A stretch of 9,411 nt of DNA from a virus (lineage: Duplodnaviria > Heunggongvirae > Uroviricota > Caudoviricetes), in IMG/VR virus record IMGVR_UViG_3300023290_000120. The stretch is one strand, 5' to 3'. Position 1 is the first letter of the stretch; each line of letters begins with the position of its first letter. The notes beneath the pieces were generated by a model. It saw only the letters and a list, made by a program, of their open reading frames with translations, was not told the DNA's origin and did no database searches. A program made the position numbers and the translations under genes. Shown piece by piece: positions 1-9,411 of the stretch.

Positions 1-203
1 CGTCGGTGCGTAGCAACAGCCCGCAAGAAGAACGCTATGAGAAAAAAACGGCAAGTAACGGCAAATTCTATTTCAATCTGAAAGCCGCTAATCATCAAAT
101 TATCGGCTCCAGCCAGATGTACGCCACCGCGCAATCTCGTGAAACCGGAATTGCCTCCGTTAAAGCCAATGGCACAAGCCAGACGGTGAAAGACAATACG
201 TAA
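1..203 (+). CDS. yegP: YegP (DUF1508/UPF0339 family), C-terminal part; 5' end cut by window edge
   Basis: The frame is open from the window edge (codon phase from base 3) to TAA at 201-203. The translation ...SNSPQEERYEKKTASNGKFYFNLKAANHQIIGSSQMYATAQSRETGIASVKANGTSQTVKDNT matches the second DUF1508 repeat of E. coli YegP as I remember it. The ORF-track start at 6 is an internal GTG, not the true start. Its position just upstream of yegQ fits E. coli gene order. Confidence 0.8.
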   Translation, partial: SVRSNSPQEERYEKKTASNGKFYFNLKAANHQIIGSSQMYATAQSRETGIASVKANGTSQTVKDNT

Positions 204-210
204 TTACGAT

Positions 211-244
211 GCCGGGCGTGGGTTGTTGGCGTCCGGCTTTATAT
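211..244 (+). terminator. Probable intrinsic terminator of yegP
   Basis: Stem 211-218 gccgggcg pairs with 230-237 cgtccggc (8 bp, one G.U), with an 11-nt loop, followed by tttatat at 238-244. It begins 8 nt after the yegP stop. Confidence 0.5.
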
Positions 245-355
245 CCAAATAACGCTTAGTTATTAATAATTAAGAGTAACCGCCGCCATTAAAATAGTGG
301 GCACTGACGAGCACTCGTTGTGCTTTCTTTGTTTACCATCCCATACTTATCCTCC

Positions 356-367
356 TGAACATGTTCA
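356..367. promoter_or_regulatory. Perfect 12-bp palindrome TGAACATGTTCA upstream of the antitoxin gene; candidate operator
   Basis: Read directly: tgaacatgttca is its own reverse complement. It lies about 90 bp upstream of the antitoxin ATG in an AT-rich stretch. RHH antitoxins typically autoregulate through inverted repeats. No clear sigma70 -35/-10 pair could be assigned. Confidence 0.3.
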
Positions 368-456
368 TGTGCCAAAATATCTTCTAATACTTTCGTGACG
401 CTATCCGGTTTATGACATACACTGATGTAAGATTTTTACTTACAGGCGGGCGTAAA

Positions 457-708
457 ATGGCCAGAACGATGACGGTTGATCTCGGCGATGAGTTGCGTGA
501 ATTTATCGAGTCCTTAATTGAATCCGGCGACTATCGCACCCAAAGCGAAGTGATCCGTGAGTCACTGCGATTACTTCGAGAAAAGCAAGCAGAGTCTCGC
601 CTGCAAGCGTTACGTGACATGCTCGCAGAAGGGTTGAGTAGTGGTGAAGCTCAGCCGTGGGAAAAGGACGCGTTCTTACGGAAGGTGAAAGCAGGGATAA
701 GGAAATAA
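457..708 (+). CDS. ParD-family (ribbon-helix-helix, CopG/Arc-like) type II antitoxin, 83 aa
   Basis: Translation MARTMTVDLGDELREFIESLIESGDYRTQSEVIRESLRLLREKQAESRLQALRDM... has the N-terminal RHH pattern and size of ParD/COG3609 antitoxins. ATG at 457-459 has a GGCGGG purine-rich patch upstream. The stop TAA at 706-708 lies 1 nt before the toxin start. The track ORF begins at 412, but that 15-codon extension is not typical for the family. Confidence 0.8.
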   Translation: MARTMTVDLGDELREFIESLIESGDYRTQSEVIRESLRLLREKQAESRLQALRDMLAEGLSSGEAQPWEKDAFLRKVKAGIRK

Positions 709-709
709 T

Positions 710-1006
710 GTGCGTATTATTAAACTCATGCCAAAAGCCAATGAGGATTTAGAAGGCATCTGGTATTACAGCTATCACCATTTCGGCGAACCACAAGCCG
801 ACAGATATGTGGAACATCTTTCAGACGTTCTCCAGATTCTGAGTAACAATAATATAGGTACGCCCAGACCTGAATTAGGCGAAGGTATTTTTGTTCTTCC
901 TTTTGAACGCCACGTCATTTATTTCCTGCAATCACCAGGGGAAATTATCGTCATTCGTATCCTTAACCAAAACCAGGACGCCACCAGACATTTACACTGG
1001 AGCTAA
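710..1006 (+). CDS. ParE/RelE-family type II toxin, 98 aa
   Basis: GTG start at 710-712 is preceded by AAGGAA at 699-704. The N-terminal pattern MRIIKLMPKANEDLEGIWYY matches the ParE signature (hydrophobic strand, then A..DL..I..Y). The C-terminal HVIYFLQSPGEIIVIRILNQNQD matches the conserved ParE/RelE beta-sheet core. Size and antitoxin-first order are canonical. An alternative ATG start at 728 would remove the first beta-strand. Confidence 0.8.
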   Translation: MRIIKLMPKANEDLEGIWYYSYHHFGEPQADRYVEHLSDVLQILSNNNIGTPRPELGEGIFVLPFERHVIYFLQSPGEIIVIRILNQNQDATRHLHWS

Positions 1007-1058
1007 ACCCGCCGATTGCGCTACAATGCCCGCCCTTAAAGTGGGGGCACTCCCCTAA

Positions 1059-1079
1059 CCGCTTCATCAGGTGAAGCGG
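1059..1079. other. Perfect stem-loop (8-bp stem ccgcttca/tgaagcgg, 5-nt loop) between the toxin gene and yegQ
   Basis: Read directly from the sequence. There is no downstream U-run, so it is not a classical intrinsic terminator. It could be an RNA-stability or processing element, or the edge of the TA insertion. Confidence 0.3.
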
Positions 1080-1108
1080 ATCTGACCTGTCATCAGAACG
1101 AGAGAATT

Positions 1109-2470
1109 ATGTTTAAACCGGAACTCCTTTCCCCGGCGGGAACGCTGAAAAATATGCGTTACGCTTTCGCTTATGGCGCAGATGCTGTTTATGCGGGCCA
1201 GCCGCGTTATTCCCTGCGTGTGCGCAACAACGAATTCAACCACGAAAATCTTCAGCTCGGCATCAATGAAGCCCACGCGCTGGGGAAAAAGTTTTATGTC
1301 GTGGTCAACATTGCACCGCACAACGCCAAGCTGAAAACCTTTATCCGTGACCTGAAACCGGTGGTGGAAATGGGGCCGGATGCGCTGATTATGTCCGATC
1401 CAGGGCTGATTATGCTGGTGCGTGAGCACTTCCCTGAAATGCCGATCCACCTTTCGGTGCAGGCTAACGCCGTGAACTGGGCGACGGTGAAATTCTGGCA
1501 GCAAATGGGCCTGACCCGCGTGATCCTCTCTCGCGAGCTGTCGCTGGAAGAGATTGAAGAGATCCGCAATCAGGTGCCGGATATGGAGATCGAGATCTTC
1601 GTTCACGGCGCGCTGTGCATGGCCTACTCCGGTCGCTGCCTGCTCTCTGGCTATATCAACAAGCGCGACCCGAACCAGGGCACCTGCACCAACGCCTGCC
1701 GCTGGGAGTACAATGTCCAGGAAGGGAAAGAAGATGACGTCGGCAACATCGTACACAAGTACGAGCCGATTCCGGTGCAAAATGTTGAGCCGACGCTGGG
1801 TATCGGCGCGCCAACCGACAAAGTGTTTATGATCGAAGAAGCCCAGCGTCCGGGCGAGTATATGACCGCGTTTGAAGATGAGCACGGCACTTACATCATG
1901 AACTCGAAAGATCTGCGCGCCATCGCCCATGTAGAACGCCTGACCAAAATGGGCGTGCATTCGCTGAAAATCGAAGGTCGTACCAAATCTTTCTACTATT
2001 GTGCACGCACCGCACAGGTTTACCGCAAAGCTATCGATGACGCCGCTGCGGGAAAACCGTTCGATACCAGCCTGCTGGAAACTCTGGAAGGTCTGGCGCA
2101 TCGTGGCTATACCGAAGGTTTCCTGCGTCGTCATACTCACGACGATTATCAGAACTACGAATACGGTTATTCAGTTTCTGACCGCCAGCAGTTTGTTGGT
2201 GAGTTTACCGGTGAGCGCAAGGGGGACCTCGCGGCGGTAGCGGTGAAAAATAAATTCTCCGTTGGCGACAGCCTTGAGCTGATGACGCCGCAAGGCAACA
2301 TTAACTTTACCCTTGAGCATATGGAAAACGCCAAAGGTGAAGCGATGCCGGTCGCACCAGGCGATGGTTATACTGTGTGGCTCCCGGTGCCGCAGGATCT
2401 TGAGCTAAATTACGCGCTGCTGATGCGTAATTTCTCCGGGGAAACCACGCGTAACCCCCACGGTAAGTGA
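1109..2470 (+). CDS. yegQ: Peptidase U32-family protein YegQ (TrhP, tRNA U34 hydroxylation)
   Basis: Uninterrupted 453-aa ORF with ATG at 1109 and GAGAG upstream. The protein, with its conserved Cys-rich block CTNACRWEY and MFKPELLSPAGTLKNMRYAF start, matches E. coli YegQ as I recall it. The 357-aa ORF on the opposite strand is a shadow frame. Confidence 0.95.
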   Translation: MFKPELLSPAGTLKNMRYAFAYGADAVYAGQPRYSLRVRNNEFNHENLQLGINEAHALGKKFYVVVNIAPHNAKLKTFIRDLKPVVEMGPDALIMSDPGLIMLVREHFPEMPIHLSVQANAVNWATVKFWQQMGLTRVILSRELSLEEIEEIRNQVPDMEIEIFVHGALCMAYSGRCLLSGYINKRDPNQGTCTNACRWEYNVQEGKEDDVGNIVHKYEPIPVQNVEPTLGIGAPTDKVFMIEEAQRPGEYMTAFEDEHGTYIMNSKDLRAIAHVERLTKMGVHSLKIEGRTKSFYYCARTAQVYRKAIDDAAAGKPFDTSLLETLEGLAHRGYTEGFLRRHTHDDYQNYEYGYSVSDRQQFVGEFTGERKGDLAAVAVKNKFSVGDSLELMTPQGNINFTLEHMENAKGEAMPVAPGDGYTVWLPVPQDLELNYALLMRNFSGETTRNPHGK

Positions 2471-2501
2471 TTAATTTCGATTATTTTTCCCGGATGGAAA
2501 A

Positions 2502-2547
2502 TTCTTAGAAACCGATCACATACAGCTGCATTTATTAAGGTTATCAT
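2502..2547 (+). promoter_or_regulatory. cyaR promoter region: putative CRP site (about 2502-2523, TCACA half-site at 2516-2520) and -10-like TATCAT (2542-2547)
   Basis: TATCAT ends 7 nt before the inferred CyaR 5' end. The TCACA half-site puts a CRP site centre near -42, consistent with the known class II CRP dependence of cyaR. The left half-site is degenerate (ttaga), so exact boundaries are uncertain. Confidence 0.4.
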
Positions 2548-2606
2548 CCGTTTCGCTGAAAAACATAACCCATAAAATGCTAGCTGTACCAGGAACCACC
2601 TCCTTA

Positions 2607-2641
2607 GCCTGTGTAATCTCCCTTACACGGGCTTATTTTTT
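2607..2641 (+). terminator. CyaR intrinsic terminator
   Basis: Stem 2607-2616 gcctgtgtaa pairs with 2623-2632 ttacacgggc (10 bp, one G.U), loop tctccc, followed by ttatttttt at 2633-2641. Confidence 0.75.
2615..2641. other. P2-type attachment-site core (27 bp) at the prophage/host junction, inside the CyaR terminator
   Basis: aatctcccttacacgggcttatttttt is the reverse complement of AAAAAATAAGCCCGTGTAAGGGAGATT, which I recall as the P2 att core. It lies about 100 bp from the ogr stop, where P2 places attP relative to ogr. Confidence 0.75.
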
Positions 2642-2682
2642 ACGCGTAATACAATGAAATAAAAGGATTTATTTCTGGTCAC

Positions 2683-2700
2683 GTCCACACATTGACCACA
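2683..2700 (-). promoter_or_regulatory. Two direct repeats (- strand TGTGGTCA ... TGTGGACG, 11 bp apart) in the att arm; candidate integrase arm-type sites
   Basis: Seen on the + strand as gtccaca (2683-2689) and gaccaca (2694-2700), one helical turn apart, between the att core and ogr. I recall the P2 Int arm-site consensus as TGTGGACA-like, but I am not certain of that. Confidence 0.25.
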
Positions 2701-2703
2701 TCG

Positions 2704-2731
2704 ACAAAAAAGCCCCTCGACTGAGGGGCTT
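2704..2731 (-). terminator. Intrinsic terminator downstream of ogr
   Basis: Perfect hairpin gcccctc / gact / gaggggc (2712-2729, extendable to 9 bp), followed on the - strand by a U-run (+ strand aaaaaa at 2706-2711). It starts about 12 nt after the ogr stop. Confidence 0.7.
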
Positions 2732-2742
2732 CCTGTTTGTAA

Positions 2743-2961
2743 TTACATCCACATAATTTGCTGCCCTGACGGCAACGGGTGCGGTCTTACGGCGTGGACT
2801 TCTCCCGGCTTCACGATGTATCGCTGTACCGACTCATAAGTGATGAACGTGGCGCTGCAATTCACGTTCTGGCACTGGTGATAACGCTCTTTTGTCGTGT
2901 CAGTGATATAGCGACTTGTACGCGCATGTGCGGCATGCTGGCATAAAGGACAATGAAACAT
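2743..2961 (-). CDS. ogr: Ogr, zinc-finger activator of P2 late transcription, 72 aa
   Basis: Translation MFHCPLCQHAAHARTSRYITDTTKERYHQCQNVNCSATFITYESVQRYIVKPGEVHAVRPHPLPSGQQIMWM has the Cys-X2-Cys-X22-Cys-X4-Cys Ogr/Delta zinc-finger spacing. ATG at 2959-2961 (+ strand cat) has GAAGAGG upstream. The 93-aa track ORF adds 21 in-frame codons that are not part of Ogr. Confidence 0.9.
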   Translation of the reverse strand: MFHCPLCQHAAHARTSRYITDTTKERYHQCQNVNCSATFITYESVQRYIVKPGEVHAVRPHPLPSGQQIMWM

Positions 2962-3042
2962 CGCGAGCACCTCTTCCGGTTTTGTTGATGGTGCTATTTT
3001 AGTCAATTTATCCTTATAAAACAAACAGATAAAATAAAGACA
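2962..3042 (-). promoter_or_regulatory. ogr upstream region with a -35-like TTGACT (+ coordinates 3001-3006)
   Basis: TTGACT is read directly on the - strand. No convincing -10 sits at 16-18 bp spacing, so the promoter assignment is tentative. Confidence 0.25.
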
Positions 3043-4206
3043 TCACTCATCATCTTCTGTTTCGTACTCCACATCAGAAAGCCTGACCTCAAGCTCCAAG
3101 GACGTCGTGAAGCCGCTATTATTCAGAAAATGTGTCACCTTAGTGATTGTCCAGTCCTGCTCGTCTATGACGCGCTTAAAGCCTGACACTTTAACCGGTG
3201 TTTCCGTGTAAATATCTGCCCGACCGGTAGCCAGGCTGATGGAGAACTCCGCAACGCCCCGTTGCAGTTTGTCCCACTTCGCCTGAGCGGCGCGCATGGC
3301 CTGCGCTTTCGTGGCATATACCGTGGTCAGGGCAAAAACGTTGTCAGCCTCACCGGCCATGTATTCACCTTCACGCGCTTCCGGTACTTTAGGCGCTTTC
3401 TTCTGCCTGACCGGTTTCGCTTTCGGGTGCTCCAGTGCGCGCAGGTGTTTCTCTTTCTTTTTGCGTTTCAGTTTTACCTTCTGCTTTTGCGGCTTCGGGT
3501 CTTTGGTGTGTAACCACTTTGCCGTTACGCCGGTATAGGCTCCACGATCAGCAATCGCAAAATGATGACGGTCACCGTCGCTGCGGGTGATGGTAATCTG
3601 CGGGATTTTTTTACCGCTGGCAGTCACCCCCTGCCCCGCTTTGAGAAACAGCAGTTTTCCCATTTTTACCGACACCTCACCGCCGTTGCGTTCAGCAAGA
3701 CGGGTCAGGAATTTCGCATCAGACTCCTGCGACTGGTCGATGTGCGGGATTTTAATTCCGGCCAGTGACGGAGCAACACGGGCTTCCAGCCTGTTACGGG
3801 AGGCTATCGCCTCAACAATCGCACCGAGCGTGGTGTCATGCCAGGAGCCTTCCCGGCGGGAATTGAGCGTCCCGCGAAAATCTGCACTCCGGGCGCGGAT
3901 GGTGACCACATCCGGCGCGCCCCGGTGTTCAACCTCATCAACGGTAAATTTCCCTTTGCATACCAGGGCAAAACCTTTCCAGCCGATATACACCGTCAGG
4001 ACAGCGCCACGAACCGGCAGCCCGACCTGCCCGTCGGCATCGTTCAGTTCAATATCAAGCTGGTCAGCCTCAAAGCCCCGGTTATCCGTCAGGGTCATGC
4101 TCATCAGACGGTCGCTGATATTGCCGGTAATATCCCTGCTGTCGAGCATCAGCATGTAATCCGGCGTCAGCGTACTGCCTGCATCAAATGTCAGCGCATC
4201 CAGCAT
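3043..4206 (-). CDS. D: P2 gpD-like tail protein (late control gene D family), 387 aa
   Basis: 387-aa ORF in the P2 position between U and ogr. Its ATG overlaps the U stop as TAATG. It contains an internal Lys/Pro-rich basic linker. Confidence 0.9.
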   Translation of the reverse strand: MLDALTFDAGSTLTPDYMLMLDSRDITGNISDRLMSMTLTDNRGFEADQLDIELNDADGQVGLPVRGAVLTVYIGWKGFALVCKGKFTVDEVEHRGAPDVVTIRARSADFRGTLNSRREGSWHDTTLGAIVEAIASRNRLEARVAPSLAGIKIPHIDQSQESDAKFLTRLAERNGGEVSVKMGKLLFLKAGQGVTASGKKIPQITITRSDGDRHHFAIADRGAYTGVTAKWLHTKDPKPQKQKVKLKRKKKEKHLRALEHPKAKPVRQKKAPKVPEAREGEYMAGEADNVFALTTVYATKAQAMRAAQAKWDKLQRGVAEFSISLATGRADIYTETPVKVSGFKRVIDEQDWTITKVTHFLNNSGFTTSLELEVRLSDVEYETEDDE

Positions 4207-4685
4207 TATCCCGCCCCCGTCATACCCGTGAATTTAGTCGCCATACTGCCAGCCTTACCGATGAGCGATTCCGCCTGTTTACCGATATCGCCATAAAGCG
4301 CGGCCAGTGATTCATCCACGCGGGTGAGTGACAGCGTAAAATCAATTTTCCGGGGTGTGCCGTCTGCAAAGAAAATACTCCCTGTTTCACTCACCCTGCT
4401 GATGACATACATGCCGTAAATCATGCCGGTGCCATCCAGCAACGGCCACGCCCGGCCTTCCTCTGCCATCAGTCTGAGCGTGGTCATCGTCAGCTTTCCG
4501 CCGGTCAGTTCAGGATAAAGCACACCGGCAAGCGTAATGTTTTCCTCACCCACACCGAGAAACTGGTAGGCATCCCGTTTACCGATACGGGAATTTGACG
4601 GCCAGCGATAATCTGATTCACGCTGCATGGTCTGGTGTGGCAGCGTCTGGCGCATAAAAACAAACATACCTAACGCGAGCATCAT
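4206..4685 (-). CDS. U: P2 gpU-like tail protein, 159 aa
   Basis: 159-aa ORF in the P2 position. AGGAGG lies 7 nt upstream of the ATG, and the stop overlaps the D start. Confidence 0.9.
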   Translation of the reverse strand: MMLALGMFVFMRQTLPHQTMQRESDYRWPSNSRIGKRDAYQFLGVGEENITLAGVLYPELTGGKLTMTTLRLMAEEGRAWPLLDGTGMIYGMYVISRVSETGSIFFADGTPRKIDFTLSLTRVDESLAALYGDIGKQAESLIGKAGSMATKFTGMTGAG

Positions 4686-4699
4686 TTTTCGTCACCTCC

Positions 4700-7147
4700 T
4701 TAACCGTCATGCATCATGCTGGCACGGGCGCGCGCACGTTTATCCCGCTCGTATTTTTCGAGTGCATCCTGTAACTGGCGGTCGAGCTGTGTCCCCGGCG
4801 CAGTACCGCCCGTCAGGTTGATGTGATATTCGTTTTTACTCTGGTCCACATAAGAGCGGCCAGCCGGTGCCGTGACCGGCTGATAAGCCTGATAACCTGC
4901 ATAAGAGCTGGCCGCCGGAATATAACCACCGGTGCCATACGTGGCGGCATGAGTTCTGGCGGCGGTCTGGTCAAGCGTGCCTGACTCTTTGTTGATAACG
5001 CCGAGTTTTTCCAGTACCCAGTCAATACCGCCGCGCAGTTTGTTGAACGCATTAAGCGGCAGCATCAGCGCGTCAGCCAGTGCCTGCCCGAACATGACGC
5101 CAGTATCACGGCAACGGTTCAGGGTGTCCTGGGTGGCTTTGACCGGGGCAATCAGGTTTTTAAACCACTGCCACGCGGCCTGTAACTTTTCACCCAGCCA
5201 GTCAAACACCGGCTTAAGTGGCGTGAACAGTTCCCCCACCGGCGCAAATGCCGCTTTCAGCCCTTCAACCACACCGCCGAAGAATGCGCTGACAGGCTCC
5301 CAGTATTTACGGATAAGCAACGCCCCGGCGACAATTGCGGCCACCACGGCCACAACCGGCCAGCTAATCGCCCCGATGGCGGTCATAACAGCACTGCCAA
5401 CCGTCATGAAGACTGCCCCCATTGCGCCTGCTGCCGCGATGATGGCATTGATGCCGGTGATAACCGGCCAGGCTACGAGGCCAATGGCACCGATGATGCC
5501 AATCAGCGCCAGCGCGCCACCGACAATGAGGCCGATGGTTGACGCCAGTGATTTGTTTTTCTGGATCCAGCCGTCGAGTTTTAACACATACTTTGTGGCC
5601 GTCTGCGTGAGCTTACGCAGTGCGCCTTCCTGCTGGTCAAACAGGTCTGTCCCCACCGCCTCATAAGCGGACTGAAACTCCTTAAAGTCACCGCCGAGGT
5701 TGTCCTGCATGATATTTACCAGCTCGGCAGTCTTCCCGTCTGAGGCTTTAAACGCAGCGGTCAGTTTGTCCAGCTTTCCGGTTGAGGCGGCAGTCATCAG
5801 CACGGCGGCGGCTGAGCTGGCCTCCTCCCCGAAAATAGTTTTCATGTATTCAGCCTGCTGGGCAGTACCGAGCCGGTTTTTCTCAAAACTGGCCTGCATT
5901 TCTTTCAGAATGGTAAATATTGGCCGGGTGTTTCCCTTGCTGTCTGAGGTTTTCACTCCAAGCTCTTTGAGTGCATCCCATGCTTTTCCCGTCGGTGCCT
6001 GCAGGCGGCTTAACACGGCACGGCTTCCCGTCCCCGCCATTGAGCCTGTGATTTTTGCATCATGCAGCGCCCCGACCATTGCGGCGGTTTCTTCAATGCT
6101 GACACCGGCATTTTTTGCCACAGGTGCGGCATAGGTCAGCGCATCGCTCATACCGTCAAAATCGGCGGCGGTTTTGTTCATCGTCATGGAGAGAACATCC
6201 CCGATATGAGCAACCTTATCGTTTGAAAGCTGAAAGGCAGATTTCATCCCCATCAGCAGGGCGGCGTTTTCTTCCATCGTGCGACGGTTCGCCAGCGCCA
6301 TATTCAGCGTGACCGGCGTTGCCGCCTGAATGGCATCAACATCCCCACCCGCTTTCGCGATGATTATCTGTGCACCGGCCGCATCATCCGCCGAGGCGGC
6401 GGTATTGTCGCCGAGCTGGCGCGCCTGCTTGCGTAGCGCGGCCATTTCGGCGGAGTCTTTTGCCACACCGAGCACGGCCTGTAATTCTGAGTTTTTCTGC
6501 GCAAATTCATAACCGGGCATCAGCAGCTTAACACCGGCCATCGTTCCCGCCGCCGCAATCCCCACACCGGCAGCGCCCACTGAGGCCATATTTCCGGCCA
6601 GCTCCTTTCCTGCCTGATAGCGCTGTTTTACTGCGTTAAGTTTTGCCTGTTGCGCACTGACACGCGCCAGCGCGTCACGCTGCCGGTTAAGCTGTGCGGT
6701 GGTTTCACTGATACGGTTTTTCAGTCCCTGCTCATCATGTGCAAGATTGCGGGTATTAATTCCCACAGCGGCCAGTTCCCGCTGCTGGCGTTTAACGGAA
6801 TCCGTCAGGCGGTTATATTTCGCCTGTAAGTCCTCCGCCGCTCGCTTTGCGGATTCCAGCACTTTCGCCTGAGCACGGGTCGGACGTTCGGTGTTTTTAA
6901 ACTGTGTGGCAAGGGCTTCGGCTTCCTGCCGTGCCTTTTCAAGTGCATGACCAGTCACGGCGAGCTGCGCACTGGTCTTGCGAAATCCCTCAATACGGGA
7001 TGCGTGACCGTTCAGCTCGCGCAGTGATTTTTGTGTTTCCCGGATATCCCCCGACAGCGACTTGCTCGCTGTGCGGATGGATTTAAACGGGCGGGATGCC
7101 TGGTCAACAGCCCTGAGCAATACCTGTAATTTTACATTGTTACTCAT
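4700..7147 (-). CDS. T: P2 gpT-like tail tape measure protein, 815 aa
   Basis: 815-aa ORF with a coiled-coil-like N-terminal half (Ala, Gln, Arg, Leu-rich heptads) and a long Gly/Ala/Ile-rich hydrophobic segment (IGLIVGGALALIGIIGAIG...), both typical of tape measure proteins. It sits between E/E' and U. Confidence 0.9.
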   Translation of the reverse strand: MSNNVKLQVLLRAVDQASRPFKSIRTASKSLSGDIRETQKSLRELNGHASRIEGFRKTSAQLAVTGHALEKARQEAEALATQFKNTERPTRAQAKVLESAKRAAEDLQAKYNRLTDSVKRQQRELAAVGINTRNLAHDEQGLKNRISETTAQLNRQRDALARVSAQQAKLNAVKQRYQAGKELAGNMASVGAAGVGIAAAGTMAGVKLLMPGYEFAQKNSELQAVLGVAKDSAEMAALRKQARQLGDNTAASADDAAGAQIIIAKAGGDVDAIQAATPVTLNMALANRRTMEENAALLMGMKSAFQLSNDKVAHIGDVLSMTMNKTAADFDGMSDALTYAAPVAKNAGVSIEETAAMVGALHDAKITGSMAGTGSRAVLSRLQAPTGKAWDALKELGVKTSDSKGNTRPIFTILKEMQASFEKNRLGTAQQAEYMKTIFGEEASSAAAVLMTAASTGKLDKLTAAFKASDGKTAELVNIMQDNLGGDFKEFQSAYEAVGTDLFDQQEGALRKLTQTATKYVLKLDGWIQKNKSLASTIGLIVGGALALIGIIGAIGLVAWPVITGINAIIAAAGAMGAVFMTVGSAVMTAIGAISWPVVAVVAAIVAGALLIRKYWEPVSAFFGGVVEGLKAAFAPVGELFTPLKPVFDWLGEKLQAAWQWFKNLIAPVKATQDTLNRCRDTGVMFGQALADALMLPLNAFNKLRGGIDWVLEKLGVINKESGTLDQTAARTHAATYGTGGYIPAASSYAGYQAYQPVTAPAGRSYVDQSKNEYHINLTGGTAPGTQLDRQLQDALEKYERDKRARARASMMHDG

Positions 7148-7567
7148 TCGTGTTTCCGCTTCGCCGGAGCGCCTTTTCGCGCCATGTGATGAGTTCAGTC
7201 AGGCTCATGGGATACAGTTCTGATGGCGGCCAGTGAAATATCACTGCCACATCCGCCATCAGGTCATCGACCGAGAGATTTTTCGGAAACGTCACTGCAC
7301 CGAGTTCGGCGACAAAAAACCGACCACCTTACCGGCCAGCGCCACAAGGTCAGGCAGTTCCAGCGCGGCGACTTCCTGCTCGGTCAGCATCGGTGCCGTC
7401 ATGCGCGGCAGCACTTTAATCAGTGCATCGACTTCGGAGTTCGCGACTGCAGCCAGACTGACACCGCGCAGCGTCCCGGCATTGGGTTTCATCAGCGTGA
7501 CCTGTTCGATAACCTGCTCACCACGTTTGACCGGATTGTCTAGGGTAATGACGTTTTCTTTGTTCAT
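7140..7567 (-). CDS. E+E': P2 E+E' tail assembly chaperone made by -1 programmed frameshift, 142 aa
   Basis: After a -1 slip at TTTTTTG the frame stays open for 57 codons (VAELGAVTFPKNLSVDDLMADVAVIFHWPPSELYPMSLTELITWREKALRRSGNTNE) and ends at TAA (7140-7142) inside the T start as ATGAGTAA. Total length is 85 + 57 = 142 aa. I translated this by hand from the reverse complement. Confidence 0.75.
7292..7567 (-). CDS. E: P2 gpE-like tail assembly chaperone (zero-frame product), 91 aa
   Basis: 91-aa ORF between FII and T ending ...GFLSPNSVQ, with stop TGA at 7292-7294. Confidence 0.85.
   Translation of the reverse strand: MNKENVITLDNPVKRGEQVIEQVTLMKPNAGTLRGVSLAAVANSEVDALIKVLPRMTAPMLTEQEVAALELPDLVALAGKVVGFLSPNSVQ
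7313..7319 (-). other. Slippery heptamer T TTT TTG (- strand) for the E to E+E' frameshift
   Basis: The + strand caaaaaa at 7313-7319 gives - strand TTTTTTG, placed 6 codons before the E stop. This is the T6G motif described for the P2 E/E' frameshift. Confidence 0.7.
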
Positions 7568-7595
7568 GGTTTTCTCACTTCTGAATCGGGGTTAA

Positions 7596-7616
7596 CCGGT
7601 CAGCCAGGCTGACCGG
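7596..7616 (-). other. Perfect 9-bp stem-loop (ccggtcagc / cag / gctgaccgg) between the FII stop and the E start
   Basis: Read directly from the sequence. It sits 8 nt after the FII stop and 28 nt before the E ATG, with no U-run. It could protect the 3' end of the upstream FI-FII message or reduce translation of E and T. Confidence 0.35.
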
Positions 7617-7623
7617 ATGAAAA

Positions 7624-8142
7624 TCACAGGCCGATATTGCGGCGGTGTTGCTCCAGCCGGTCGACGCCGTTCACCTTCTCAATCATGTTGATGGTGTCGA
7701 TTTCGACCAGCTCCTTACCGTCCATCGTCAGCCGGAAATAGGTGCAGACCACGGAGATTTTCGACTCGGTGTCTTCTCCCTGTTTGCCCTCGCCGGTGTC
7801 GATTTCTTTCTGACGTCCACGCATGACCACCTCGACGGCCACCGTTTCGCCGGTATCGTCGCGCTGGTAAGAGCCTGCAAAACGAATCGGTACGGCATCC
7901 ACACCGGTTGCGGCGTAAAGCTCCCAGATAACCGAATCCGGGAAGCCACCGAGCGACCACTCCATTGACAGCGCATCGTCATCAAGGCCGAGGTCTACCG
8001 GTGCGCTGCCGTTCATCCCCGCACCGCGATAGTTTTCGAGCTTACGGGTCAGTTTTGGCAGCGTGACGGACTTCGCGACGCCCTGATAGCTGTAGCCGTT
8101 CAGAAAGACGTTCATTAACTTGAGTTTGCGCGGCATTGCCAT
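7624..8142 (-). CDS. FII: P2 gpFII-like major tail tube protein, 172 aa
   Basis: 172-aa ORF immediately downstream of FI with a 12-nt spacer containing GGAG. Size and position match P2 FII. Confidence 0.9.
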   Translation of the reverse strand: MAMPRKLKLMNVFLNGYSYQGVAKSVTLPKLTRKLENYRGAGMNGSAPVDLGLDDDALSMEWSLGGFPDSVIWELYAATGVDAVPIRFAGSYQRDDTGETVAVEVVMRGRQKEIDTGEGKQGEDTESKISVVCTYFRLTMDGKELVEIDTINMIEKVNGVDRLEQHRRNIGL

Positions 8143-8154
8143 CGGTCAGGCTCC

Positions 8155-9345
8155 TTAATTGCTGTTAACCGAGGTGACCAGATTTGCCAGGTATTTATCA
8201 GTAATACGCTGGCGCAGGGTCAGGTTTTCAAGAGGAGGCACCGGGGTATAGTCGTAGTCGATATACAGTTTTCCGGCCTTGAGGGTTTCCGCATCGTTGG
8301 ATTCTTCGCTGAACCAGCAGGTCGCATCCACGATATAGCCGTTTGTTTTCAGCTCACGGAATTTGGCATTGATGCCGTCAACGATGTCGCGAATCAGCGT
8401 TGCGGTGATGGGCTTGTCCACCGCCCACATGTGCGCCTCAGCCATCGTGTCGGCCAGCACCTGCGCGGTGCGGGTGTAGTTTTCAAAGAGGAACAGCGGG
8501 TCATCAGAGCAGGTACGGTTACCCCAGAAGCGAAAACCGTCGCGGCGAATCAGCGTTGTGACGCCTGACTCGTTAAGCAGGTCAGCATCGGTGCCGGACT
8601 CCTGCAAATCCCAGAATACAGAGGCGCTGATGCCGGTAACACCGTTCACCCCGACATTGGACAGCGTTTTATGCCAGCCCTGCTCCTGGTCGATTTTAGC
8701 GCGCAGCCCCAGCGCACGGGCGGTGGCATACGCGGTGGCGGTGGTACTGGTGACCGTATCCCATGCGAGGAAATCCGGCCAGATGACCATCAGCTCACGC
8801 TGGCTGAAATTCTGACGGTAGGCTTTCACCTCGGAAATGGTTTTACAGCCCCATGCGCTGATATACCCGAAAGCGCGCAACTTCTGACAGACTGATGCCA
8901 GTGCAACAGCCACCTCTTTGGTGTCCAGTCCCGGCACGCCGAGAATACGCGGTTTAACACCGGTTACCGACTCCGCCGCCAGCAGGGCTTTCAGTCCGGT
9001 GTACTGACCGTTTTCGTCGGTGGTGCCGATGATATTGGAAACGGTCTGCGCGAGTTTCGTTTCCTCGTCGTCGCCGGTGCCGTCTTCCACACGCACGACA
9101 ACGGTGACCGGTTTTGACTGGTCGGCGATGGCCTGCAACGATGCCGCCAGCGTGCCTTTTTTACCGGCCTTTGCAATTGCGCTCTGCACATTGGTAATCA
9201 GCACAGGTTTATTGAGGGGGAAGGTTTCCGCATCCGCATCGCTGGCCGTGCAGACCATGCCGACAATGGCCGTGGATACGGTGGAAATGACGCGGGTGCC
9301 GTCGTTAATCTCCAGCACCTGCACGCCATGATGATAGTCACTCAT
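8155..9345 (-). CDS. FI: P2 gpFI-like contractile tail sheath protein, 396 aa
   Basis: 396-aa ORF, first gene of the FI-FII-E-T-U-D block. Size and position match the P2 sheath protein. Confidence 0.9.
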   Translation of the reverse strand: MSDYHHGVQVLEINDGTRVISTVSTAIVGMVCTASDADAETFPLNKPVLITNVQSAIAKAGKKGTLAASLQAIADQSKPVTVVVRVEDGTGDDEETKLAQTVSNIIGTTDENGQYTGLKALLAAESVTGVKPRILGVPGLDTKEVAVALASVCQKLRAFGYISAWGCKTISEVKAYRQNFSQRELMVIWPDFLAWDTVTSTTATAYATARALGLRAKIDQEQGWHKTLSNVGVNGVTGISASVFWDLQESGTDADLLNESGVTTLIRRDGFRFWGNRTCSDDPLFLFENYTRTAQVLADTMAEAHMWAVDKPITATLIRDIVDGINAKFRELKTNGYIVDATCWFSEESNDAETLKAGKLYIDYDYTPVPPLENLTLRQRITDKYLANLVTSVNSN

Positions 9346-9411
9346 CCGTTTAACTCTGAATCGCCACAGATAATCTAGACACTTCCGAGCCGCTGATAAT
9401 ATTGTTTTTCG
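9346..9411 (-). promoter_or_regulatory. FI leader and probable late promoter (P_F-like), truncated at the window edge
   Basis: On the - strand a TAGATT/GATTAT -10-like element lies about 25-30 nt upstream of the FI ATG. An Ogr-type TGT-N12-ACA site centred near -55 would straddle or lie beyond base 9411; only a possible ACA half (9402-9404) is visible. Confidence 0.3.

What the first reader, a model, noticed from the sequence alone, without database searches (positions are those of the whole stretch)
9346..9411. Window ends at the FI promoter, just before the P2 variable locus
In P2-like phages the segment between tail-fibre assembly gene G and FI (the Z/fun position) is a known hotspot carrying diverse, often uncharacterised anti-phage systems. 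Given the gene order here, that locus would start immediately past base 9411. Any novel cargo associated with this prophage is more likely there, or at the tin/old locus, than in the conserved tail block in this window.
Basis: established knowledge. Interest (0 to 1): 0.45.

Follow-up and report, generated by a model that had tools for sequence, protein, structure and literature searches.

The report
Insertion sequence end, not FI promoter
The last 55 bases of the window are the tip of a common jumping gene (an IS3-family insertion sequence) that landed 11 bases in front of the phage tail-sheath gene, so the expected promoter is not there; this is an ordinary event that probably cripples the prophage.

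Summary
The window holds the E. coli yegP'-parDE-yegQ-cyaR flank, then the right arm of a P2-like prophage on the minus strand (ogr, D, U, T, E/E', FII, FI), with the FI ATG at 9345.

The stretch 9346-9411 is not the FI promoter. Homology to every P2-like phage or prophage stops at base 9356. Bases 9357-9411 (55 nt) are the IRR end of a 1,228-bp IS3-family element, called ISEhe3 in the phage SfIV record. They carry the terminal TGAATCGCCACAG and the last 11 codons plus stop of orfB. The IS sits 11 nt upstream of the FI ATG, inside the Shine-Dalgarno sequence (GGAG becomes AGAG).

In 13 relatives, the Ogr-type dyad (TGT-N12-CCA) and the -10-like element lie at -91 to -33. That puts them on the far side of the IS, outside the window. 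The junction is absent from all collections searched.

Sister prophages are 100% identical over 2530-9356 and lack the IS. Between G and FI they carry two unannotated genes, each with an invariant HEPN-like Rx4H motif. This supports the general hotspot idea, but that locus does not start "immediately past 9411", and I could not show that it is still attached in this genome. The finding itself is ordinary and of low interest.

The parts
9357..9411 (-). Terminal 55 nt (IRR end) of an IS3-family insertion sequence (ISEhe3-like). It contains the 13-nt terminal inverted repeat TGAATCGCCACAG (9357-9369), and the orfB stop codon plus last 11 codons (9375-9410, minus strand, EKQYYQRLGSV*). The transposase reads in the same direction as FI.
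   Evidence: matches to annotated IS3-family/ISEhe3 copies. (full 1,228-bp copy with TGAATCGCCACAG...CTGTGGCGATTCA ends). (orfB NF033516 334 bits, rve; orfA HTH_Tnp_1). (C-terminal peptide matches).
9346..9356 (-). Surviving 11 nt of the native FI leader (GAGTTAAACGG before ATG). The Shine-Dalgarno GGAG is cut to AGAG by the IS end.
   Evidence: the relatives read CCACGGAGTTAAACGGATG, the window reads GATTCAGAGTTAAACGGATG.
8155..9345 (-). FI, tail sheath gene. It is intact and is the first gene of the late FI-FII-E/E'-T-U-D operon.
   Evidence: Phage_sheath_1 domains; the exact protein is listed in 25,082 blocks of the collection.
3043..8142 (-). Rest of the tail operon: FII 7624-8142, E 7292-7567 and E' 7140-7295, T 4700-7147, U 4206-4685, D 3043-4206. 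All are intact and identical to the sister prophages.
2743..3024 (-). ogr, the late-gene activator. The longest ORF is 93 aa; the annotated product is 72 aa.
   Evidence: Ogr_Delta; annotated ogrK.
2553..2638 (+). CyaR sRNA gene next to the prophage right end. Prophage homology begins at about 2647-2654.
   Evidence: RF00112, 100.7 bits; alignment starts of prophages integrated at other sites.

Best explanation
Bases 9357-9411 are the right (IRR) end of an IS3-family insertion sequence about 1.2 kb long in full-length copies. It has transposed into the 5' untranslated leader of the P2-type tail operon, 11 nt upstream of the FI start codon and inside its Shine-Dalgarno sequence.

Shown:
- the identity of the 55 nt
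- the exact breakpoint
- the orientation (transposase co-directional with FI)
- the intactness of all tail genes
- the absence of the insertion in every relative

Inferred:
- In uninterrupted relatives, the Ogr-dependent promoter PF (dyad TGT-N12-CCA at -91..-74, -10-like GAAAAT at about -39..-33, start near -27) lies upstream of the insertion point. In this genome it would therefore be displaced by the length of the IS.
- FI-FII-E-T-U-D would then be reached only by read-through from PF or from the IS's own weak pIRL promoter, and FI would be translated from a damaged ribosome-binding site.
- The likely outcome is a polar, recent, strain-private insertion that strongly lowers tail production and leaves a defective or poorly productive prophage.

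The window contains no FI promoter.
For: Breakpoint at 9356 in all comparisons.

55/55 nt identity to E. coli IS3-family copies and 54/55 to the SfIV ISEhe3 copy, with annotated orfA/orfB.

The full copy is 1,228 bp with 13-nt perfect terminal inverted repeats TG...CA. Transposase family was confirmed, and the orfB C-terminus is encoded in the window.

Position and conservation of PF elements in 13 relatives, and their absence from the window. PF drives FI FII E E' T U D with consensus TGT-N12-ACA (PMC3931495).

The prophage part 2530-9356 is 100% identical to IS-free sisters L015/L019, so the insertion is recent.

The only sigma-70-like promoter pointing toward FI in a composite model is the IS's pIRL, about 1.2 kb upstream. 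None was found in the IRR end.
Against: Only 55 nt of the IS are visible. A full-length element, a simple insertion and a target duplication are therefore assumed, not seen.

The PF start site is placed by the -55 rule and by conservation, not by mapping.

Read-through transcription and the residual GAG could still give some FI expression. No expression data exist.

The source genome could not be found.
Confidence: 0.85

Rival explanations
1. One reading: 9346-9411 is the native FI (PF) promoter, and the Z/fun variable locus begins right after 9411.
For: In relatives the FI promoter does lie upstream of FI.
Against: Homology to all relatives ends at 9356. 9357-9411 is IS sequence. There is no TGT-N12-ACA-like dyad or conserved -10 in the flank. 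In intact sisters, the cargo starts about 185 nt upstream of FI.
Confidence: 0.02
2. The IS end marks a rearrangement boundary rather than a simple insertion. An IS-mediated deletion or inversion would have removed or relocated PF, the Z/fun cargo and the rest of the prophage, leaving only an ogr-to-FI remnant at the cyaR/yegQ site.
For: The other IS junction was not found anywhere. Remnant P2 prophages are known at this very site: the ogr homologue here is annotated ogrK, and from my own knowledge E. coli K-12 has an ogrK/yegZ remnant there. Other copies of this IS sit in rearranged contexts, with truncated neighbours and a nested IS30.
Against: The visible 6.8 kb of prophage has no decay at all relative to intact sisters, which fits a very recent single event. 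The far junction was absent only from collections that also lack the near junction, so its absence says nothing either way.
Confidence: 0.2
3. The 55 nt are only a contig-end overlap or a chimeric assembly join, so there is no real FI-IS junction in the genome.
For: The IS portion is exactly 55 nt, a common final k-mer size of short-read assemblers, and IS copies typically break assemblies (inference). The junction is seen nowhere else.
Against: A de Bruijn contig that runs from unique sequence into the first k bases of a repeat still requires reads spanning the junction. The break falls precisely at the IS's terminal TG, as expected for true transposition. The left end of the window is single-copy DNA.
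Confidence: 0.05
4. The sequence is a short solo remnant of the IS (an IRR fragment), not a complete element, so PF may lie only a little further upstream.
For: Only 55 nt are visible. Truncated or interrupted copies of this IS exist in E. coli.
Against: The fragment is 100% identical to functional-looking copies, and the host prophage shows no other decay. Most matches lie under annotated transposase genes.
Confidence: 0.1

Closest known systems
ISEhe3 / IS3-family insertion sequences (the copy in Shigella phage SfIV, KC814930, and copies in E. coli chromosomes)
   Same: 54-55 of 55 nt are identical. Same terminal inverted repeat TGAATCGCCACAG and same orfB C-terminus. Full copies have orfA (HTH_Tnp_1) and orfB (rve, NF033516) with a programmed frameshift.
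   Different: This is a new insertion site, the FI leader of a P2-like prophage, not seen in 5,426 complete E. coli genomes or the other collections. Only the end of the element is in the window. The name ISEhe3 is taken from a GenBank annotation and was not checked against ISfinder.
Phage P2 late promoter PF (Ogr-dependent, TGT-N12-ACA near -55)
   Same: Relatives of this prophage have a conserved TGT-N12-CCA dyad and a GAAAAT(A) -10-like element in front of FI. The operon content matches PF's FI FII E E' T U D (PMC3931495).
   Different: None of it is in the window. The IS has replaced everything beyond -11.
P2 Z/fun variable locus between G and FI
   Same: Relatives show different cargo here, flanked by conserved DNA and an inverted repeat. 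The literature names it as a hotspot (PMC13586616).
   Different: It is outside the window. In this lineage the cargo is two orphan genes with HEPN-like Rx4H motifs, not fun/Z, and it is found in only 1 of 5,426 complete E. coli genomes.
Cryptic P2 remnant at cyaR/yegQ in E. coli K-12 (ogrK, yegZ)
   Same: Same chromosomal site and the same ogr-proximal end of the prophage. RefSeq names the ogr homologue ogrK. The K-12 comparison is from my own knowledge.
   Different: Here at least ogr through FI is intact and identical to the complete sister prophages.

Membership tests
IS3 family insertion sequence | Terminal imperfect inverted repeats beginning 5'-TG and ending CA-3' | tested here: met
   The window's IS part starts TGAATCGCCACAG at 9357. 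Full copies end ...CTGTGGCGATTCA.
IS3 family insertion sequence | Two overlapping ORFs (orfA with HTH, orfB with a DDE/rve domain), fused by programmed -1 frameshift | tested here: met
   Tested on full-length copies that match the window's 55 nt. orfB scores NF033516 at 334 bits (cut-off 160) and has rve; orfA has HTH_Tnp_1. RefSeq annotates 'programmed frameshift'. In the window itself only the last 11 codons of orfB are present.
IS3 family insertion sequence | Short (3-4 bp) target-site duplication flanking the element | not testable with these tools
   The other end of the element lies outside the window, and the source genome was not found.
P2 late promoter PF | Ogr-binding dyad TGT-N12-ACA about 55 nt upstream of the start site | tested here: not met
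   No match with up to 1 mismatch in the window's flank. It is present at -90/-91 from the ATG in all 13 relatives.
P2 late promoter PF | Sequence homology of the FI upstream region to P2-like phages | tested here: not met
   Homology ends 11 nt upstream of the ATG.
P2-like (Peduovirus) prophage tail operon | Gene order FI-FII-E/E'-T-U-D-ogr with the corresponding protein families | tested here: met
   (Phage_sheath_1, Phage_tube, Phage_TAC_7, Phage_P2_GpE, PhageMin_Tail, Phage_P2_GpU, Phage_GPD, Ogr_Delta). 95-99% DNA identity to P2-like phages.
Z/fun variable locus | Unrelated cargo between the conserved G and FI genes in otherwise similar prophages | tested here: met
   Met in relatives only. 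For the window's own genome it is not testable.
HEPN superfamily (sister-prophage cargo proteins A and B) | Conserved Rx4-6H motif | tested here: met
   Invariant R230-N-E-R-F-H235 in 59 homologues of A. In 58 homologues of B, R112 and N113 are nearly invariant and H117 is invariant (R-N-A-Y-V-H).
HEPN superfamily (sister-prophage cargo proteins A and B) | All-alpha HEPN fold / match to HEPN family models | tested here: inconclusive
Known anti-phage defence systems (PADLOC-DB 2.0) | Match to a defence-system protein model | tested here: not met
   0 families at E <= 1 for both cargo proteins.

The most novel reading that the evidence does not exclude
If the IS is a simple insertion, this genome still carries the cargo seen in the identical sister prophages just beyond it. 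That cargo is two independently mobile, unannotated genes (304 aa and 172 aa), each with an invariant HEPN-like Rx4H motif, and absent from PADLOC, Pfam and PHROGs. They could be two new single-gene abortive-infection or RNase-type anti-phage modules at the P2 Z/fun hotspot. The IS insertion may have frozen the prophage in place as a non-excising carrier of them.
Probability: 0.25. Interest if true: 0.5.

Novelty: already known. Interest (0 to 1): 0.15.

Why it matters
For the scan, the value is corrective. The flagged 66 bases are not a promoter and give no direct access to the hotspot. The right-hand neighbour is a repeat element, which may also explain why the sequence stops there.

Biologically, it is a textbook case of a prophage being disabled by a single IS hop into the leader of its tail operon. 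This is useful only as an annotation note: the prophage should not be scored as intact.

The one lead worth keeping lies outside the window. The lineage's Z/fun cargo is a rare pair of unannotated HEPN-like genes that no defence database recognises.

Tried and rejected
1. I searched for the exact FI-IS junction in four collections and found nothing, so the source could not be extended: complete E. coli genomes, GTDB species genomes, JGI metagenomes and IMG/VR.

2. I searched for the predicted far junction (PF side joined to IRL, 0-8 nt gap) in metagenomes, genomes and viral contigs. Nothing was found.

3. An exact-protein look-up with FI and with yegQ returned alleles too common to locate the source. 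The look-up with T found the sister prophages, but only long, IS-free contigs were read.

4. I looked for an outward promoter in the IS end that could drive FI. None was found by a consensus scan.

5. I tested whether cargo A and B form an obligate two-gene system. This was rejected: distant homologues of each occur without the other, and the two are not related to each other.

6. Sequence searches of A and B against PDB and of A's model against viral structures gave no significant match. The afdb50 fold library was unavailable.

7. I checked GenBank AJ512685 for an annotated PF. Its -35/-10 features belong to the cargo ORF, not to PF.

Full report
**What the window is**

The ORF map and the annotated matches show two parts.

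- Chromosomal E. coli genes on the plus strand: the 3' part of yegP, a ParD/ParE pair at 412-1006, yegQ/trhP at 1109-2470, and the CyaR sRNA at 2553-2638.
- The right arm of a P2-like prophage on the minus strand: ogr (2743-3024), D (3043-4206), U (4206-4685), T (4700-7147), E'/E (7140-7567), FII (7624-8142) and FI (8155-9345).

The Pfam families recorded for the identical proteins in related contigs agree with these names.

**What is at 9346-9411**

Every comparison breaks at the same base.

- Megablast of 7600-9411 against phage records covers the query only up to window position 9356.
- The whole window against 5,426 complete E. coli genomes aligns 1-9356 and never further.
- A pairwise alignment with a P2 genome shows identity through ...CCGTTTAACTC and none after it.
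- Local BLAST against all fetched loci gives the same end point.

The remaining 55 nt (9357-9411) match the end of 'IS3 family transposase' elements in E. coli at 55/55 nt (E about 5e-20). They match the element annotated 'ISEhe3 orfA/orfB' in Shigella phage SfIV at 54/55 nt.

In SfIV and in E. coli CFSAN061762, the full element is 1,228 bp. It is bounded by TGAATCGCCACAG ... CTGTGGCGATTCA. Its orfB scores 334 bits on NCBIfam 'IS3 family transposase' (cut-off 160) and carries rve domains. Its orfA has HTH_Tnp_1.

The window's minus strand at 9375-9410 encodes EKQYYQRLGSV*, the C-terminus of orfB. SfIV has ENQYYQRLGSV*.

The window therefore contains the IRR end of the IS, and its transposase reads toward FI.

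**Where the promoter really is**

P2 has four Ogr-dependent late promoters with the consensus TGT-N12-ACA. One of them, PF, drives FI FII E E' T U D (PMC3931495).

I examined 13 relatives: a P2 genome, a prophage at the same site, ten prophages encoding the identical FI protein, and a sister prophage. All have:

- a TGT-N12-CCA dyad starting at -90/-91 from the FI ATG
- a conserved ACAGAAAATA block at about -42 to -33
- the sequence CCACGGAGTTAAACGGATG

Placing the dyad centre at -55 puts the start site near -27 (inference). The window reads GATTCAGAGTTAAACGGATG. The IS therefore entered between -12 and -11, downstream of the promoter, and converts the GGAG ribosome-binding site to AGAG. No dyad-like sequence exists in the window's flank. 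The 'FI promoter' of the finding is not in the window.

**How recent and how private the insertion is**

An exact-sequence look-up of the T protein returned ten contigs with the same prophage at the same yegQ/cyaR site.

The window is 99.7-99.8% identical to them over 1-9356. Against L015 and L019, every difference lies at or below 2529. All but one (2529, just upstream of cyaR) are in yegQ, so 2530-9356 is 100% identical.

None of these sisters has the IS. The junction was also not found in complete E. coli genomes, GTDB species genomes, JGI metagenomes or IMG/VR. The tail genes are all intact.

This indicates a single, recent, strain-private transposition.

**Likely consequence (inferred)**

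If the insertion is simple, a full-length copy would displace PF by about 1.23 kb. A consensus scan of a composite model (sister upstream + IS + window) finds only the IS's own pIRL-type promoter (TTAACA-17-TAAGAT) pointing toward FI, about 1.2 kb away. It finds none in the IRR end. Several weak terminator-like hairpins lie on that strand inside the IS.

FI is needed in large amounts. It would then depend on read-through transcription and a weakened ribosome-binding site. I therefore expect a strong polar reduction of tail synthesis, and hence a defective or low-yield prophage. This is not shown.

**What cannot be decided**

Only 55 nt of the IS are visible. I cannot tell whether the element is complete, whether it is a simple insertion, or whether it marks a deletion or inversion end-point.

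Searches for the predicted far junction gave nothing. That is uninformative, because those collections lack the near junction too.

The IS part is exactly 55 nt, a common assembler k-mer. This hints that the source contig simply ends in the repeat (inference). The left end of the window is single-copy DNA.

The idea that G-FI is a hotspot is sound. It is named in the literature (PMC13586616, 'Z/fun locus' and a hotspot within the tail genes). GenBank holds 'proviral Z-region' records with flanking inverted repeats.

Among prophages with the identical FI protein, the G-FI interval holds:

- an invertase with an invertible fibre segment
- a 259-aa orphan
- a 461-aa + 348-aa pair
- an HNH-like 307-aa gene
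- a 359-aa + 55-aa pair

In the sister prophages of this window, the interval is a 2.2-kb module bounded by a 36-nt inverted repeat (L015 5364-5399 / 7583-7618). The module holds ORF-A (304 aa, 5755-6669, late-gene direction) and ORF-B (172 aa from the ATG, 6822-7340, opposite direction). A terminator hairpin (7678-7698) and then PF follow.

So even without the IS, the cargo would begin about 185 nt upstream of the FI ATG, not at 9412.

**What the sister cargo looks like**

- Neither protein hits PADLOC, Pfam or (significantly) PHROGs.
- Each has about 100 or more homologues, all 'hypothetical', in Proteobacteria and a few Firmicutes.
- Alignments show an invariant R-N-E-R-F-H in A and a near-invariant R-N-A-Y-V-H in B. 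These are Rx4H motifs of the HEPN kind.
- AlphaFold models are confident and all-helical: pLDDT 92 for A and 96 for B, pTM 0.90 for both.
- A few B homologues hit Pfam HEPN_RiboL-PSP weakly. A's homologues hit none.
- A and B are unrelated to each other.
- They are not an obligate pair. A occurs without B in Duganella (next to an integrase, an HNH gene and DUF4145), in Xanthomonas and in Aliarcobacter (25 nt after an SMC-like ATPase). B occurs without A in a Stenotrophomonas integrase island with BrxR and in Aeromonas.
- The cassette is rare. It is in 1 of 5,426 complete E. coli genomes and in no phage record.

These are reasonable candidates for new single-gene HEPN-type defence or abortive-infection modules. 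The evidence is a motif plus a weak fold match plus context only. Their presence in the window's own genome is inferred from sequence identity of the neighbouring prophage arm.

**Verdict**

The 66 bases are 11 nt of FI leader plus the tip of a known IS.

The feature in the window is an already-known kind of event, with low interest.

Noticed in passing
L015 5364-7618 (sister prophage, outside the window): The Z/fun cargo of the lineage is two orphan genes: ORF-A of 304 aa at 5755-6669 (+) and ORF-B of 172 aa at 6822-7340 (-). Each has an invariant HEPN-like Rx4H motif, and neither has a PADLOC or Pfam hit. The module is bounded by a 36-nt inverted repeat and is present in only 1 of 5,426 complete E. 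coli genomes.
   Followed up: partly
window 2553-2638 (+): A complete CyaR/RyeE sRNA gene (Rfam, 100.7 bits) lies directly next to the prophage end. Homology to prophages integrated elsewhere begins at about 2647-2654, so the attachment site abuts the 3' end of cyaR.
   Followed up: partly
window 1714-2455 (yegQ): All 14 differences shared against the ten sister contigs fall in two clusters inside yegQ (1714-1840 and 2305-2455), while the prophage is identical. The window's yegQ protein is the commonest E. coli allele. This suggests a recombination tract in the flank, or the same prophage in a different host background.
   Followed up: partly
window 412-1006 (+): A ParD/ParE toxin-antitoxin pair sits between yegP and yegQ. 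It is present in some E. coli contexts (L004, L010, L015, L026) and absent in others (L012, L025), so this intergenic spot is itself variable.
   Followed up: no
window 7140-7567 (-): The overlapping E (91 aa) and E' (51 aa) ORFs have the arrangement of the P2 tail-chaperone programmed frameshift. I did not examine them further.
   Followed up: no
L002 3001-5390 and L043 2501-4889: Two E. coli copies of the same IS3-family element, at unrelated chromosomal sites, both carry an IS30 inserted at about the same internal position (about 900-980 nt from the IRR end, after the 894-nt annotated orfB remnant in both), in opposite IS30 orientations. This could be an IS30 hot spot or a composite that moves.
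   Followed up: no
window 9357-9411: The IS portion is exactly 55 nt long, equal to a commonly used final assembler k-mer. The window may simply be the end of a short-read contig that stops at a repeat.
   Followed up: partly
L038 1700-4888; L035 3285-5815: Distant homologues of cargo protein A sit 25 nt downstream of a 758-aa SMC-like ATPase (Aliarcobacter), and between an HNH/ScoMcrA-like gene and a DUF4145 gene next to an integrase (Duganella). These are defence-island-like contexts.
   Followed up: no
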